DNA of 40,198 bases from an uncultured Gammaproteobacteria bacterium. Lineage in GTDB: Bacteria; Patescibacteriota; Microgenomatia; UBA8517. The stretch covers positions 177,551 through 217,748 of the forward strand of contig CAZIMC010000002.1 in the NCBI GenBank assembly GCA_964540475.1, in the 5' to 3' direction. Positions 15,510-18,167 of the stretch are shown here, one piece after another. A program made the translations under genes and the position numbers. The notes under the pieces are model-generated. The model saw only the letters and a list, made by a program, of their open reading frames with translations, made no database searches and was not told the DNA's origin. Position 1 is the stretch's first letter. Each line of letters begins with the position of its first letter.

Positions 15510-15515
15510 ATTAGG

Positions 15516-15587
15516 TGGAGCCAGTAGGGATCGAACCTACGACCTTCTACACGTCAAGTAGACGCTCTACCACTGAGCCATGGCTCC
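15516..15587 (-). tRNA. tRNA-Val(GAC)
   Basis: Anticodon arm tctac-TTGACGT-gtaga. Confidence 0.95.
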
Positions 15588-15640
15588 GCCTGGACAGATA
15601 AATTATACTTGATCGCTCAAGTTTTTTCCAACCTCTATAT

Positions 15641-15989: not shown

Positions 15990-16018
15990 ATTTTATTTTT
16001 ATTATATTAGCTTGTCAA
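15990..16018 (-). promoter_or_regulatory. sigma70-type promoter
   Basis: TTGACA (16018-16013), 17 nt, TAAAAT (15995-15990). Confidence 0.8.
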
Positions 16019-16200
16019 TCCACCGATTGAGGAGTGGTTTCAGTTCTAACAAACGGCTTATGATCGGTAGCGTTCCAGCTAACATTCTTATGACCAAGCA
16101 TTCTGGCTAATTCCGAACCGATTTTAACTTTATCGCTACTAGTAGCCCGTTTTGCTTTTTGTTCAGCCGTGGCTTTCCCGTTTTCAAATTTTCTATCCAT
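16015..16200 (-). CDS. 61-aa basic orphan protein
   Basis: GGGGTGA SD before ATG 16200; directly follows the Zn-ribbon ORF. Confidence 0.65.
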   Translation of the reverse strand: MDRKFENGKATAEQKAKRATSSDKVKIGSELARMLGHKNVSWNATDHKPFVRTETTPQSVD

Positions 16201-16205
16201 AATTA

Positions 16206-16427
16206 TCACCCCATTCTCTCGATTCCAGCTAGTGAATAATTGCGTCCTGGATTCCTAATTTCACCTTCAGCACCAACAGACCAACCACATCCGTTACAAT
16301 GTGTTTCTAGCACATATGTTTCACCATGATTTCCTTTAAAGGAAATTTCATATGCCGAGCTGTTATTTATTCCCTGACTTTCGCAATTAGGACAAGCTCC
16401 TACTTTTTTTGCTTTACTTCCTGCCAT
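16206..16427 (-). CDS. 73-aa putative zinc-ribbon protein
   Basis: CPNC ... HCNGCG (two CxxC pairs); first gene after the Ile-type attenuator. Confidence 0.7.
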   Translation of the reverse strand: MAGSKAKKVGACPNCESQGINNSSAYEISFKGNHGETYVLETHCNGCGWSVGAEGEIRNPGRNYSLAGIERMG

Positions 16428-16446: not shown

Positions 16447-16472
16447 AAAAAAACCTCTCTGGTGAGAGGTTT
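16447..16472 (-). terminator. attenuator terminator
   Basis: AAACCTCTC-ACCA-GAGAGGTTT followed by TTTT. Confidence 0.9.
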
Positions 16473-16511
16473 AGAATTGTTTATTTGATTAAATTGGTTA
16501 TTCTCTCACCA

Positions 16512-16571
16512 TTAAGCGCTAACCCCAATAAAGAGGTTAATGCTAATAATGAGTGAAAGATTTCTTATCAT
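16512..16571 (-). CDS. Ile-rich leader peptide MIRNLSLIISINLFIGVSA, apparently leaderless
   Basis: 19 codons, 5 Ile + 3 Leu + 1 Val; ATG 6 nt after the -10 box; followed by antiterminator strand TGGTGAGAG. Confidence 0.8.
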   Translation of the reverse strand: MIRNLSLIISINLFIGVSA

Positions 16572-16577
16572 ATATAT

Positions 16578-16607
16578 ATTTTAGTTTCTAGCAGTTGTTT
16601 TTGTCAA
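16578..16607 (-). promoter_or_regulatory. sigma70-type promoter
   Basis: TTGACA (16607-16602), 18 nt, TAAAAT (16583-16578). Confidence 0.8.
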
Positions 16608-16620
16608 GCTGAAAGACTAA

Positions 16621-17256
16621 TTATCCAGCAGAGCGTTGGAGATAGTGATCCGGGGCAAGAAGGAAAGAGCTTCCCTTTTTCTTGTACATTGACCAGTAAT
16701 TTTTCTTTTGCGCGCGTTTGTTGGTTGCGTGAAGCCAGACTGCTGCGCTATCAATTTTCTTTCTAAAATCCTTCAAAAATTCCAATAGCTTTTCAAAGAA
16801 TATAACATGGTAGATTCCCGGATTAACTGGAGCCTGCATTGTTGCAACTTTAAGCTCATCGGAGATATTTTGAGTAGTTTTTGCTAGACTCATGACCTCC
16901 TGGGTCAAAGCCTGTAGCTGTACACGTAGCTCGTTAGCCTTTTTTTCTACAAGGACTTTTTCCTCCCGTGCAAGGTTCCTTTCAAGAGAGATTTGCGCTT
17001 TTAATTTTTTGTTTTCTTCAAGCTTGCCAGAAAAAACTTCACCCATTTCAATGGATTCACCCGGGGTGATTTCACCTGAATATTTTTTGCTGATTCTGGG
17101 TCCAAATAACTGATCGAAAAATTCCTGCGAGGTGTCTTGCAGCAGATCCTTTTTCATAGTTTTTACGCCAGTATTTCCTATATCCTTTAGAGCTTCCAGG
17201 ACACTTGCCTGCCTTCGTTGTTTTTGGCCTTTTGGTTTTTGATTTTTAGGATCCAT
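16621..17256 (-). CDS. conserved hypothetical coiled-coil protein (DUF5660-like)
   Basis: 211 aa, central coiled coil, PVNPGIYHVIFFEKL; family name from memory, unverified. Confidence 0.75.
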   Translation of the reverse strand: MDPKNQKPKGQKQRRQASVLEALKDIGNTGVKTMKKDLLQDTSQEFFDQLFGPRISKKYSGEITPGESIEMGEVFSGKLEENKKLKAQISLERNLAREEKVLVEKKANELRVQLQALTQEVMSLAKTTQNISDELKVATMQAPVNPGIYHVIFFEKLLEFLKDFRKKIDSAAVWLHATNKRAQKKNYWSMYKKKGSSFLLAPDHYLQRSAG

Positions 17257-17282: not shown

Positions 17283-18167
17283 TTACAGTAGGGCAACCAG
17301 TGAGTCAAGCGCGGCGCGTTTGGTTAACACACGCCTTACAACTCTTTTTTGCTCATCACTTTGTGCATTTTTAGCTAGGTTTGGATCGGCTGATGAAGCT
17401 TTAAGCGCTTCATCGATTTGCTCTTCATTTACACTAATTTTTTCCTCTTCGATGATTTTTCCTAATATTAAATCAAGCTTAAGCGTACCTTCAGATTGTT
17501 TATTGTATTCTTCTCGCAGGCTTTCCGGAGTTTTACCTACAGAGGTCAAATAACTTTCTAAATTTAAACCCAAGTGTTCAATTCTATGCAGCAAATTGGA
17601 AAGTCTTGCGTTAACCTCTTCTTCTAATAAAACTTGAGGAATATTTACCTTTGCAGTTTCTAGAAGGGTTTTGATGACTAATTCTTCCTTTTGCTCTTTT
17701 GTGGGTTCTGTTTTTTCTTTGTTGTCTCCCGGTTTCCAAATTGCATCAGTCTTTCCAGCATTTTTGAGTGCCTCTTTATAATTTCCCAGATCTACCTTGG
17801 GCATTTCGCATGTTAAGGCTCTTACTTGCCAATCCTCGTTTTCATCAGCCTTAATCAGTTCAAACTTGGGGTAAATTGCGGGAATAATTTTATGCCCCTT
17901 TATTGCTTCAGCTAATGCGTGCGGCAGAAGTTTAGATAAAGTTTCTTGAATAAGCTTATCTTGGGGAATTTTTTCGGCTGCCTTCTCTTTAGGGGCCTTA
18001 CCTTTTCTGAACCCGGGGACGTCTATATTTTTTGCAAGTTCTGTTATTACTTCGTCACGTGTACTCTTGACTATCTCAAAGGGAACGGTAAATGTTAGTT
18101 GCAATGTTCCATCGTCTGTTTTGGCTAAGGCAGAAGTAATTTTAAGTTTAGTATTATTTTGTGCCAT
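17283..18167 (-). CDS. tig: trigger factor lacking the FKBP PPIase domain
   Basis: VPGFRKGKAP ribosome-binding signature; C-terminal chaperone domain; only 294 aa. Confidence 0.9.
   Translation of the reverse strand: MAQNNTKLKITSALAKTDDGTLQLTFTVPFEIVKSTRDEVITELAKNIDVPGFRKGKAPKEKAAEKIPQDKLIQETLSKLLPHALAEAIKGHKIIPAIYPKFELIKADENEDWQVRALTCEMPKVDLGNYKEALKNAGKTDAIWKPGDNKEKTEPTKEQKEELVIKTLLETAKVNIPQVLLEEEVNARLSNLLHRIEHLGLNLESYLTSVGKTPESLREEYNKQSEGTLKLDLILGKIIEEEKISVNEEQIDEALKASSADPNLAKNAQSDEQKRVVRRVLTKRAALDSLVALL

What the first reader, a model, noticed from the sequence alone, without database searches (positions are those of the whole stretch)
16447..16607. Leaderless Ile-rich leader-peptide attenuator upstream of a Zn-ribbon microprotein
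Seen: TTGACA-18-TAAAAT, 6 nt, then MIRNLSLIISINLFIGVSA (5 Ile including ATT ATT AGC ATT). Protector: CTTTCACTCATTA pairs with TAATGGTGAGAG around an inner AGCATTAACCTC/GGGGTTAGCGCT hairpin. Antiterminator: TGGTGAGAG pairs perfectly with CTCTCACCA. Terminator: AAACCTCTC/GAGAGGTTT plus T run. Inference: stalling on Ile (perhaps Leu/Val) codons frees the antiterminator and switches on a CxxC-CxxC protein of unknown role.
Basis: partly seen in the sequence, partly recalled or inferred. Interest (0 to 1): 0.8.

Follow-up and report, generated by a model that had tools for sequence, protein, structure and literature searches.

The report
Leader-peptide attenuator in a Woesebacteria genome
The flagged stretch is a real, conserved switch in which translation of a tiny 19-codon ORF most likely decides whether transcription stops at a terminator or reads on into a small zinc-ribbon protein gene. 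It belongs to a previously undescribed family of such switches in the ultra-small Woesebacteria, but which amino acid it senses is not settled.

Summary
That covers the TTGACA-18-TAAAAT promoter, an AUG 6 nt later, the 19-codon ORF MIRNLSLIISINLFIGVSA, a -28 kcal/mol protector hairpin, a perfect 9-bp antiterminator and an intrinsic terminator.

It is not chance. A covariance model finds about 30 relatives in Woesebacteria and Blackburnbacteria genomes. All share four features:
- a promoter;
- an AUG 6-13 nt after the -10 with no Shine-Dalgarno sequence;
- an open 14-28 codon ORF (31/31);
- the same 1:2 / 2:3 / 3:4 logic.

The antiterminator is supported by compensatory changes that fall in the terminator loop. 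The same window also carries a Phe-rich leader between rplT and pheST and a second F/Y-rich leader, so this lineage does use ribosome-mediated attenuation.

Ile-specificity is weak. The nearest relatives have 1-2 Ile but 6 Leu. Across the family Ile, Leu and Phe are each enriched only 2-2.6-fold, and RNA constraints can explain much of that.

The first genes downstream differ between relatives and are mostly of unknown function. M20 peptidases recur as second genes.

Verdict: a new member of a known kind, the leaderless leader-peptide transcription attenuator. It probably senses Leu/Ile. No transcript data exist.

The parts
16602..16607 (-). -35 hexamer TTGACA of the leader promoter
   Evidence: TTGACA or a near match is conserved in most relatives.
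16578..16583 (-). -10 hexamer TAAAAT, after an 18-nt spacer
   Evidence: TAnAAT is conserved in relatives.
16512..16571 (-). Leader ORF of 19 codons plus UAA: MIRNLSLIISINLFIGVSA. The AUG lies 6 nt after the -10, so it is predicted to be leaderless.
   Evidence: An ORF in the same frame is open in 31/31 family members.
16547..16559 (-). Region 1, CUUUCACUCAUUA. It covers codons 5-9 (Leu-Ser-Leu-Ile-Ile) and forms the 5' arm of the protector (anti-antiterminator) hairpin.
   Evidence: Region 2 pairs with codons about 5-8 in relatives.
16515..16544 (-). Inner or apical hairpin, AGCAUUAACCUC-UUUAUU-GGGGUUAGCGCU
   Evidence: The apical helix is 89.8% paired across 27 sequences, with double changes in 2 of 4 pairs.
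16503..16514 (-). Region 2, UAAUGGUGAGAG. It contains the stop codon UAA, forms the 3' arm of the protector and is one strand of the antiterminator.
16473..16502 (-). A-rich unstructured spacer between regions 2 and 3. It is 30 nt here and roughly 20-65 nt, with variable sequence, in relatives.
16460..16468 (-). Region 3, CUCUCACCA. It comprises part of the terminator 5' arm plus the terminator loop, and is complementary to UGGUGAGAG.
   Evidence: Covariation occurs at the loop positions.
16447..16472 (-). Intrinsic terminator AAACCUCUC-ACCA-GAGAGGUUU followed by U7
   Evidence: 9 pairs, 4 GC. Hairpin energy is -11.9 kcal/mol. It is invariant in relatives.
16206..16427 (-). Regulated gene 1: a 73-aa microprotein with CPNC...HCNGC. 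It starts 19 nt after the U-run.
   Evidence: The family has about 20-33 members with invariant C12, C15, E41, H43, C44 and C47.
16015..16209 (-). Regulated gene 2 (probable): a 64-aa ORF overlapping the stop of gene 1. Its function is unknown.
   Evidence: It has no Pfam or NCBIfam family.
16621..17256 (-). Upstream DUF5660 gene, preceded by trigger factor at 17283-18167. Its transcripts must also end at the attenuator's terminator.
   Evidence: No other terminator lies between them.

Best explanation
The element is a ribosome-mediated (leader-peptide) transcription attenuator. It belongs to a previously undescribed family in Woesebacteria and related Microgenomates.

How it most likely works:
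1. A sigma-70-type promoter starts the transcript at, or within a few nucleotides of, the AUG of a 19-codon ORF (leaderless initiation, inferred).
2. If nobody translates the ORF, or the ribosome has already run to the stop codon, codons 5-9 (region 1) pair with UAAUGGUGAGAG (region 2) in a -28 kcal/mol hairpin. The terminator (3:4) then forms and the roughly 125-nt transcript ends. The same terminator also ends tig-DUF5660 read-through transcripts, in which the internal AUG has no ribosome-binding site.
3. If a ribosome stalls with its A site on about codons 5-11 (Leu-Ser-Leu-Ile-Ile-Ser-Ile), region 1 is covered. UGGUGAGAG is then free to pair with CUCUCACCA as soon as that sequence emerges, the terminator cannot form, and RNA polymerase reads into the Zn-ribbon microprotein gene and the 64-aa ORF.
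4. A ribosome sitting on the last sense codon or the stop codon covers region 2, which favours termination.

The most likely signal is a shortage of charged tRNA-Leu and/or tRNA-Ile, rather than Ile alone.

Shown here: the sequence anatomy, conservation, covariation and in-silico switching. Inferred: the transcription start, translation, the sensed amino acid and regulated read-through.
For: Anatomy and stability:
-.

Family:
- Covariance model R1 finds 27 hits at E<0.001 in 25 sources, plus L111, L121, L205 and L208.
- All have a TTGACA/TAnAAT promoter and an AUG 6-13 nt after the -10 without a Shine-Dalgarno sequence.
- An ORF of 14-28 codons is open in 31/31, against 6/31 and 12/31 in the other frames. 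By composition alone the chance per sequence is about 0.54.
- Region 2 pairs with codons about 5-8 in nearly all of the 31 relatives (exceptions: L017, L048; a few assignments blurred by over-long duplexes) (H1 -18 to -33 kcal/mol), and the first 10-13 nt after the AUG are usually unpaired.

Antiterminator:
- 87% of cells are paired.
- Double changes are G-C to A-U (3 sequences) and to C-G (2), and U-A to C-G (1), at positions that lie in the terminator loop.
- 0 of 500 shuffles reach the observed score, and slid registers collapse to 30-73% paired.
- RNAalifold itself picks the 2:3 helix as the consensus.

Switching in silico:
- With the A site on codons 5-17, the 9-bp antiterminator forms in the transcript that still lacks region 4.
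- On codons 7-8 the antiterminator beats the terminator even in the full-length transcript.
- On codon 19 or the stop codon, region 2 is covered.

Internal controls:
- The window has MKTFSFSGFCFRIN plus a terminator between rplT and pheS-pheT.
- It also has MNATNNILFGFYFTS plus a terminator at 16018-15866.
- In relative L036, MKINSVKFYFYFTS precedes chorismate mutase and a PDH/PDT fusion.

Other support:
- Only 19 nt separate the U-run from the Zn-ribbon start codon, and 8-30 nt in most relatives, leaving no room for a separate promoter.
- Homologues of the Zn-ribbon protein sit behind other leader-peptide attenuators (L213, L209, L212) or at the end of pheST (L214).
- 64% of Leu codons in type-A leaders are CUC, which makes up 7% of Leu codons in the window's genes.
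- The best Rfam near-misses are His_leader and Phe_leader, both matched full length.
Against: - There are no RNA data of any kind. The transcription start, translation and read-through are therefore all inferred.
- There is no clear run of a single regulatory codon. Ile, Leu and Phe are enriched only 2.1-2.6-fold, against 5.4-fold for Phe in the Phe-type leaders. This bias, including the CUC preference, can be a by-product of the pyrimidine-rich arm that must pair with GGUGAGAG.
- The downstream genes are not amino-acid genes in the window, and they are unrelated to each other across relatives.
- The element tracks the upstream tig-DUF5660 genes more than any downstream gene. It directly follows DUF5660 in only about a quarter of the roughly 72 DUF5660 loci with a located stop codon.
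- Equilibrium folding of some relatives lets the antiterminator form without a ribosome, so the decision must be kinetic, and that was not modelled.
- Many covariation cells may stem from only 3 independent events.
Confidence: 0.7

Rival explanations
1. The RNA switch is the same, but it reports general translation capacity rather than a particular amino acid. Any slowing of the pioneer ribosome would open the antiterminator. Possible causes are overall starvation, ribosome-targeting antibiotics, or loss of transcription-translation coupling.
For: - The leader has no clean run of one codon.
- The peptide sequence is largely dictated by RNA pairing. The apical-hairpin residues vary (LFIEG, LLRGE, LFTRR) while the helix is kept.
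- Masking the ribosome anywhere from codon 5 to 17 opens the switch.
- The downstream cargo is variable and has no link to a single amino acid.
Against: - In the same genomes, Phe-type leaders with cognate targets (pheST, chorismate mutase/PDT) show that codon-specific sensing is in use.
- Leu and Ile occupy the critical codons in nearly all type-A members.
- The rare CUC codon is strongly preferred.
Confidence: 0.15
2. The functional product is the terminated transcript of about 125 nt itself: a stand-alone small RNA, or an attenuator-derived trans-acting RNA like rnTrpL of Sinorhizobium. The downstream genes are just neighbours.
For: - It has its own strong promoter and an efficient-looking terminator.
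- Its sequence is very conserved, including an invariant terminator stem.
- It is syntenic with the upstream tig-DUF5660 genes while the downstream genes vary.
- Attenuator RNAs acting in trans are documented (PMC6614838).
Against: - A pure sRNA does not explain the AUG at the 5' end with a conserved open frame in 31/31 members.
- It does not explain the covarying 2:3 helix that competes with its own terminator.
- The downstream genes have no promoter of their own.
- This reading is not exclusive of the attenuator reading.
Confidence: 0.07
3. The short ORF encodes a functional hydrophobic micropeptide, such as a membrane peptide or type I toxin, with its own terminator.
For: - The peptides are hydrophobic with a recurring N-terminal pattern (M-R-N-L-S-L-I-I..L-F-I).
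- The ORF is always open.
Against: - Length (14-28 aa), C-terminal half and stop position all vary freely.
- The residues that are conserved are those encoded by the paired RNA segments.
- Peptides of 16-19 aa are too short to span a membrane (my own knowledge).
- Other family branches encode quite different peptides on the same RNA scaffold (type B, Phe-type).
Confidence: 0.04
4. The element is an ordinary terminator of the tig-DUF5660 operon, preceded by a chance hairpin, a chance promoter match and a chance ORF.
For: - The terminator is the only one downstream of DUF5660.
- A 19-codon ORF in pyrimidine-rich sequence is open by chance about 40-55% of the time.
Against: - Fold z-score is -6.2.
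- Promoter, AUG, frame and all three helices are conserved in about 30 diverged genomes, with compensatory changes.
- Copies also occur away from DUF5660 and twice per locus.
Confidence: 0.02

Closest known systems
Corynebacterium glutamicum ilvBNC attenuator (leader peptide MTIIRLVVVTARRLP; three-hairpin AAT/AT/T model; PMC11857589 and Morbach et al. 2000 cited therein)
   Same: - The leader peptide has no ribosome-binding site, and the transcription start is 1 nt from its start codon.
- The codons are mixed Ile/Leu/Val.
- There are three competing hairpins: anti-antiterminator, antiterminator and terminator.
- The first roughly 10 nt after the AUG are left unpaired.
   Different: - The target there is the branched-chain amino-acid biosynthesis operon. 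Here it is a Zn-ribbon microprotein of unknown role, in an organism of a lineage generally poor in biosynthesis.
- There is no sequence similarity.
- Val is not enriched here.
- The spacer between regions 2 and 3 is a long A-rich stretch.
Enterobacterial leader-peptide attenuators (trp, his, pheA, leu, ilvGMEDA, ilvBN; Rfam His_leader RF00514, Phe_leader RF01859)
   Same: - The 1:2 / 2:3 / 3:4 logic is the same, with the regulatory codons in region 1.
- The stop codon is placed so that a finished ribosome masks region 2.
- An intrinsic terminator lies directly before the structural genes.
- These families are the best, though sub-threshold, Rfam matches over their full length.
   Different: - Scores are far below the gathering thresholds (26.7 against 49, and 23.8 against 55).
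[quoted passage not shown]
- They carry clear runs of one cognate codon.
- Their targets are biosynthetic.
E. coli pheM-pheST attenuator (thrS-infC-rpmI-rplT-pheM-pheS-pheT; from my own knowledge)
   Same: The window contains the same arrangement. thrS, infC and rplT are followed by a Phe-rich 14-codon ORF plus terminator and then pheS-pheT. This shows that the mechanism class operates in this genome.
   Different: That is a different element in the window (9339-9241), not the one flagged. The flagged element has no aminoacyl-tRNA synthetase or biosynthetic gene behind it.
Mycobacterial polycysteine leaderless short ORFs (bioRxiv 10.1101/834739)
   Same: Leaderless short ORFs at the start of polycistronic transcripts act as amino-acid-responsive attenuators of the downstream genes.
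   Different: - Those leaders are Cys-specific and lie upstream of Cys-related genes.
- I did not check whether they use an intrinsic terminator switch.
- They have no RNA similarity to this element.

Membership tests
Ribosome-mediated (leader-peptide) transcription attenuators | A short ORF at the very start of the transcript, conserved as an open frame | tested here: met
   The ORF has 19 codons starting 6 nt after the -10. The homologous frame is open for at least 14 codons in 31/31 relatives, against 6/31 and 12/31 in the other frames.
Ribosome-mediated (leader-peptide) transcription attenuators | Three mutually exclusive helices: 1:2 protector, 2:3 antiterminator and 3:4 terminator | tested here: met
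   The 2:3 helix is supported by compensatory changes at terminator-loop positions, and 0 of 500 shuffles reach the score.
Ribosome-mediated (leader-peptide) transcription attenuators | The 3:4 helix is an intrinsic terminator with a U-tract immediately upstream of the regulated genes | tested here: met
   The stem has 9 bp followed by U7, and the start codon lies 19 nt downstream.
Ribosome-mediated (leader-peptide) transcription attenuators | Regulatory codons for the sensed amino acid are concentrated where a stalled ribosome frees region 2 | tested here: inconclusive
   Codons 5-11 are L S L I I S I, and the family core is S-L-I-I. Enrichment is only 2.1-2.6-fold for Ile, Leu and Phe, and the closest relatives have 1-2 Ile. 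The result is confounded by RNA constraints.
Ribosome-mediated (leader-peptide) transcription attenuators | The regulated genes are functionally tied to the sensed amino acid | tested here: inconclusive
   The window's targets have no known function. Relatives have M20 peptidases as second genes (L046, L208). Zn-ribbon homologues sit in pheST or other aminoacyl-tRNA-synthetase operons.
Ribosome-mediated (leader-peptide) transcription attenuators | The leader is translated, and read-through rises when the cognate tRNA is uncharged | not testable with these tools
   No RNA or ribosome-profiling runs hold this sequence.
Leaderless leader peptides (Corynebacterium ilvBNC type) | The transcription start is at or next to the AUG, with no Shine-Dalgarno sequence | tested here: inconclusive
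   The -10-to-AUG spacing of 6 nt places the A of the AUG at the canonical +1. Spacing is 6-13 nt, with no Shine-Dalgarno sequence, in relatives. The start site itself is not mapped.
Rfam His_leader (RF00514) and Phe_leader (RF01859) | The score reaches the family's gathering threshold | tested here: not met
   Scores are 26.7 bits against 49, and 23.8 bits against 55. Nothing reaches gathering level.
Riboswitch or T-box leaders | A match to a curated ligand- or tRNA-binding RNA family, or conserved unpaired core nucleotides | tested here: not met
   No Rfam match was found. The only long unpaired stretch is an A-rich spacer of variable length and sequence.
Type I toxin or small membrane protein gene | The peptide is conserved beyond what the RNA structure imposes, and is long enough to span a membrane | tested here: not met
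   Peptides are 14-28 aa with variable C-terminal halves and stop positions.

The most novel reading that the evidence does not exclude
Woesebacteria, tiny bacteria of the CPR lineage, which is generally poor in amino-acid biosynthesis (not checked for this genome), may use a diversified battery of leaderless leader-peptide attenuators as their main starvation sensors. At least five peptide types share one RNA scaffold: Leu/Ile-rich type A, type B (S-H..Y.PFW), Phe/Tyr-type, a Leu-run type and a type C. These would be wired not to biosynthesis but to peptidases, aminoacyl-tRNA synthetases and a conserved CxxC...HCxxC microprotein. On this reading the microprotein is a new starvation-induced effector, for example a factor that binds the ribosome or tRNA.
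Probability: 0.25. Interest if true: 0.7.

Novelty: new member of a known kind. Interest (0 to 1): 0.5.

Why it matters
Classical leader-peptide attenuation is textbook biology for amino-acid biosynthetic operons, mainly in Proteobacteria and Actinobacteria. I found no report of it in the Candidate Phyla Radiation in the searchable literature, and no Rfam family covers these elements.

- If confirmed, it gives uncultured CPR bacteria a concrete regulatory mechanism that can be predicted from sequence. These organisms have few recognisable regulators.
- It shows attenuators wired to amino-acid salvage and translation genes (M20 peptidases, pheST) and to unknown microproteins, rather than only to biosynthesis.
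- It flags the Zn-ribbon microprotein family as a candidate starvation-response gene.
- The promoter is close to the E. coli consensus, so the switch can be tested directly in a standard coupled transcription-translation system.

Tried and rejected
- **Rfam.** Only tRNAs reach gathering thresholds. At permissive E-values only sub-threshold His/Phe leader matches appear.
- **Metagenome scan.** The pattern was anchored on the terminator stem. It returned mostly unrelated terminators from other organisms. Only L111 and L121 are true members.
- **Protector outer stem.** The covariance-model alignment aligned it poorly, with 65.7% paired because of register shifts. I replaced this with per-sequence folding.
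- **Equilibrium ribosome-masking across all relatives.** The trend is as expected, but several relatives form the antiterminator without a ribosome. Thermodynamics alone therefore does not decide, and the script also crashed on the last three entries.
- **Function of downstream genes.** Pfam, NCBIfam and PDB sequence searches found nothing for the 73-aa and 64-aa proteins or for the large type-A cargo proteins. These proteins are not related to each other.
- **Structure of the Zn-ribbon protein.** AlphaFold2 gave pLDDT 85.6, but only 1 of 5 models was confident. Foldseek against the PDB gave no hit better than E = 0.5.
- **Weak sequence hints for the 73-aa protein.** ZPR1 and MqsA-N hints are below cut-off and were not adopted.
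- **Link to the stringent response.** Relatives carry a RelA/SpoT gene a few genes downstream. A tRNA-Val lies in between, the RelA/SpoT start codon directly abuts that tRNA, and the gene is absent at this position in the window. I rejected it as part of the regulated unit.
- **Nascent leader peptide sensing trigger factor, the upstream gene.** Rejected. A 19-aa peptide cannot leave the ribosomal exit tunnel (my own knowledge).
- **Test for ileS, leuS or ilv behind the element.** The window has none of these genes.
- **RNA-seq evidence.** None is available.
Full report
**Setting**

The window comes from a Candidatus Woesebacteria genome (Microgenomates, CPR). The flanking DUF5660 protein has 888 relatives, almost all from Woesebacteria or Patescibacteria assemblies. 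The neighbouring genes are a trigger factor without a PPIase domain, an RRM protein and many tRNAs.

The finding lies on the minus strand between the DUF5660 gene (17256-16621) and a 73-aa ORF (16427-16206).

**1. Observation**

- TTGACA (16607-16602), an 18-nt spacer and TAAAAT (16583-16578). This is 11 of 12 consensus positions.
- An ATG 6 nt later, at 16571.
- The ORF MIRNLSLIISINLFIGVSA, ending in UAA at 16514-16512.
- A long hairpin in which CUUUCACUCAUUA pairs with UAAUGGUGAGAG around an inner stem-loop (-28.1 kcal/mol).
- A perfect 9-bp complementarity between UGGUGAGAG and CUCUCACCA.
- A terminator, AAACCUCUC-ACCA-GAGAGGUUU plus U7, at 16472-16447.

The 193-nt intergenic RNA folds with z = -6.17, and 0 of 200 dinucleotide shuffles fold as well.

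**2. It is a conserved family**

The only close homologue of the 73-aa protein (P0002, 56% identity) sits on a contig (L002) that carries the same element. It has the same promoter, an AUG 6 nt after the -10, a 19-codon ORF and an identical terminator. The sequence of its inner hairpin is different but still pairs.

I fetched 80 loci encoding DUF5660 from species-representative genomes. Motif searches and a covariance model built from 16 instances (R1) then found 27 hits at E<0.001 in 25 sources. Further hits turned up in loci fetched independently (L111, L121, L205, L208). Some loci carry two copies about 1.5 kb apart.

Thirty-one instances were tabulated:
- Nearly all have a TTGACA/TAnAAT promoter.
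- All have an AUG 6-13 nt after the -10 with no Shine-Dalgarno sequence.
- All have an ORF of 14-28 codons in the same frame. It is open for at least 14 codons in 31/31, against 6/31 and 12/31 for the other two frames. The chance per sequence from composition alone is about 0.54.
- The stop codon always falls between the apical hairpin and about 25 nt past region 2.
- Per-sequence folding shows that region 2 pairs with codons about 5-8 of the ORF in nearly all of the 31 relatives (exceptions: L017, L048; a few assignments blurred by over-long duplexes). Hairpin energies are -18 to -33 kcal/mol with z down to -7.5.
- The first 10-13 nt after the AUG usually stay unpaired, as leaderless initiation requires (the requirement is discussed in PMC11857589).

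**3. The antiterminator is under selection**

On the model-based alignment, which was fitted to the protector and terminator and not to the 2:3 helix, the antiterminator is 87% paired. Two of its pairs show changes on both sides:
- G-C becomes A-U in L037, L047 and L052.
- G-C becomes C-G in L056 and L057.
- U-A becomes C-G in L018.

These positions lie in the loop of the terminator, so the terminator stem cannot explain them. None of 500 column shuffles reaches the observed covariation score, and sliding the partner by 1-3 columns drops pairing to 30-73%. RNAalifold on the plain MAFFT alignment also chooses the 2:3 helix as the consensus.

In more distant variants all four segments have a different sequence, yet the logic is kept:
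- CCUCCUA / UAGGGGG / CCUCCUAG in L036, L063 and the second window element.
- CCCUCC / GGGAGGG / ACCCUCC in L213.
- UUGGCGG / CCGCCAA in L209 and L212.

**4. In-silico switching for the window element**

- Growing transcripts complete the protector at nt 72 and the terminator at nt 116-126. No antiterminator appears.
- I then forced a 28-nt ribosome footprint to be unpaired. A-site positions on codons 5-17 give the 9-bp antiterminator in the transcript that ends before region 4.
- On codons 7 (CUC) and 8 (AUU) the antiterminator wins even in the full-length RNA.
- With the A site on codon 19 or on the stop codon, region 2 is covered and only the terminator remains.

This is the behaviour the attenuator model predicts. 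The critical codons are about 5-11 (L S L I I S I). Across relatives the same trend holds. However, equilibrium folding is not decisive for all of them, so the decision must be kinetic.

**5. This lineage uses the mechanism**

- The window contains thrS, infC, rplT and then pheS-pheT. Between rplT and pheS sits a 14-codon ORF, MKTFSFSGFCFRIN, whose AUG overlaps the rplT stop codon. It is followed by an alternative pairing (CUGGUGG / CCACCAG) and a terminator. This is the arrangement known for pheM-pheST in E. coli (my own knowledge).
- A second promoter-ORF-terminator unit lies just downstream of the finding, at 16018-15866. It encodes MNATNNILFGFYFTS, folds with z = -7.15, and precedes a 65-aa ORF that has a strong Shine-Dalgarno sequence.
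- In L036 a sibling, MKINSVKFYFYFTS, precedes chorismate mutase and a prephenate dehydrogenase/dehydratase fusion.
- These Phe-type leaders are 5.4-fold enriched in Phe.

**6. Which amino acid?**

In 21 type-A leaders, the first 15 codons are enriched 2.6-fold in Ile, 2.1-fold in Leu and 2.4-fold in Phe. Val is not enriched.

The window peptide has 5 Ile. Its nearest relatives have 1-2 Ile and 6 Leu (L002 and L205). The conserved core at the critical position is S-L-I-I or S-L-x-I.

Sixty-four per cent of Leu codons in these leaders are CUC, the rarest Leu codon in the window's genes at 7%. This would sharpen sensitivity to one tRNA-Leu. It also follows trivially from the CUCUCA and CCUC pairing motifs.

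I therefore regard Leu and/or Ile as the best guess, Ile alone as unsupported, and a non-specific translation sensor as the main rival.

**7. What is controlled?**

Only 19 nt separate the U-run from the start of the 73-aa gene. In relatives a co-directional ORF starts 8-90 nt after the terminator. These genes can therefore be transcribed only by read-through.

The first gene after type-A elements differs between genomes, and these genes are unrelated by BLASTP. None has a Pfam, NCBIfam or PDB match. M20 peptidases follow as second genes in L046 and L208.

A sister branch, type B, encodes peptides like MNLMSHTLIIRYLPFWKA. It precedes M20 peptidases in 6 of 8 cases.

The 73-aa protein belongs to a small family of 20-33 members, all 67-93 aa, with invariant C12, C15, E41, H43, C44 and C47. 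Nine contexts were examined:
- Directly behind type-A elements: the window and L002.
- Behind a Leu-run leader, MKNVINNTASLSLLLMLA, after tig-DUF5660: L213.
- Behind a further leader type, in an operon with an S9-like hydrolase and a class I aminoacyl-tRNA synthetase: L209 and L212.
- At the end of pheS-pheT: L214.
- No visible leader: L210, L216 and L217.

The fold prediction and structure search gave no functional lead.

**8. Caveats**

- The element tracks the upstream genes. L111, which was found without using DUF5660 as bait, again has tig-DUF5660-element.
- It directly follows DUF5660 in only about a quarter of the roughly 72 DUF5660 loci with a located stop codon, and the downstream cargo varies.
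- The terminator therefore also serves tig-DUF5660, and a role for the released RNA cannot be excluded.
- No RNA-seq run holds this sequence.

**9. Comparison and novelty**

The architecture matches the classical leader-peptide attenuators. It is closest to the leaderless ilvBNC attenuator of Corynebacterium glutamicum, with its three-hairpin model (PMC11857589). It also resembles the mycobacterial leaderless Cys-responsive short ORFs (10.1101/834739).

It is not a member of any Rfam family. The best hits are His_leader at 26.7 bits against a threshold of 49, and Phe_leader at 23.8 against 55. Full-text searches found no description of leader-peptide attenuation in CPR, Patescibacteria or Woesebacteria.

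I classify it as a new member, in fact a new family, of a known kind of system.

**10. Verdict**

- My confidence that it is a ribosome-mediated attenuator is about 0.7.
- Interest is moderate, at 0.5.

Noticed in passing
window 16018-15866 (minus strand): A second attenuator-like leader lies directly downstream of the Zn-ribbon/64-aa pair. It has TTGACA-17-TAAAAT, an AUG 7 nt later (15982), the ORF MNATNNILFGFYFTS, a hairpin ACCUCCU/AGGGGGU, and a terminator ACCCCGAU-AAA-AUCGGGGU plus U-run (fold z = -7.15). A GGAGGTG Shine-Dalgarno sequence and a 65-aa ORF (15838-15641) of unknown function follow, and then tRNA-Val.
   Followed up: partly
window 9339-9241 (minus strand): A Phe-rich leader ORF, MKTFSFSGFCFRIN, lies between rplT (9677-9336) and pheS (9230-8205) / pheT (8203-6251). 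It overlaps the rplT stop codon and is followed by an alternative pairing CUGGUGG/CCACCAG and a terminator. The gene order thrS-infC-rplT-leader-pheST matches the E. coli pheM arrangement.
   Followed up: partly
L072:3654-3784, L030:3623-3761, L014:912-1043, L059:3657-3793, L018:4832-4971, L022:3624-3768: A sister branch (type B) of the same RNA scaffold encodes peptides such as MNLKSHITCMYLHFWRYF and MNLMSHTLIIRYLPFWKA, with single His, Tyr, Phe and Trp residues. It sits upstream of M20-family peptidase genes. This suggests starvation-induced peptide salvage.
   Followed up: partly
L213:1661-1765; L209:2138-2262; L212:11-146: Two further leader types have the same three-hairpin logic. One is a Leu-run leader, MKNVINNTASLSLLLMLA, after tig-DUF5660. 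The other is a type C leader (…QHT..QKFIL.NR..FLAVL) in front of an operon of small ORF, Zn-ribbon microprotein, S9-like hydrolase, a 155-aa ORF and a class I aminoacyl-tRNA synthetase.
   Followed up: partly
window 16427-16206 and P0124-P0162: The 73-aa protein defines a small microprotein family of 67-93 aa with invariant C12, C15, E41, H43, C44 and C47 (motif LETHCNxCG). It has no Pfam family. One member lies at the end of a pheS-pheT operon (L214).
   Followed up: partly
window 17283-18167 (minus strand): The trigger factor is only 294 aa, with Pfam Trigger_N and Trigger_C domains but no PPIase domain between them.
   Followed up: no
L001:775-2631, L205:4767-6626 against window about 15510-15640: In close relatives a RelA/SpoT-type gene (HD_4 plus RelA_SpoT) immediately follows the tRNA-Val downstream of this locus. 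In the window that gene is missing, and the tRNA-Val abuts a convergent histidine-phosphatase gene.
   Followed up: partly
window 38259-39872 (minus strand) and the tRNAs at 38052-38326: A large serine recombinase (Resolvase plus Zn_ribbon_recom) abuts a cluster of tRNA-Leu, tRNA-Pro and tRNA-Gly. This could mark the edge of an integrated element.
   Followed up: no
L011:3779-5056, L044:5272-, L045:5268-, L046:3781-5478, L058:5450-, L111:2497-3612: Large proteins of 370-565 aa lie directly behind type-A leaders. They have no Pfam, NCBIfam or PDB sequence match and are mostly unrelated to one another. Only L045 and L058 share 34% identity.
   Followed up: partly
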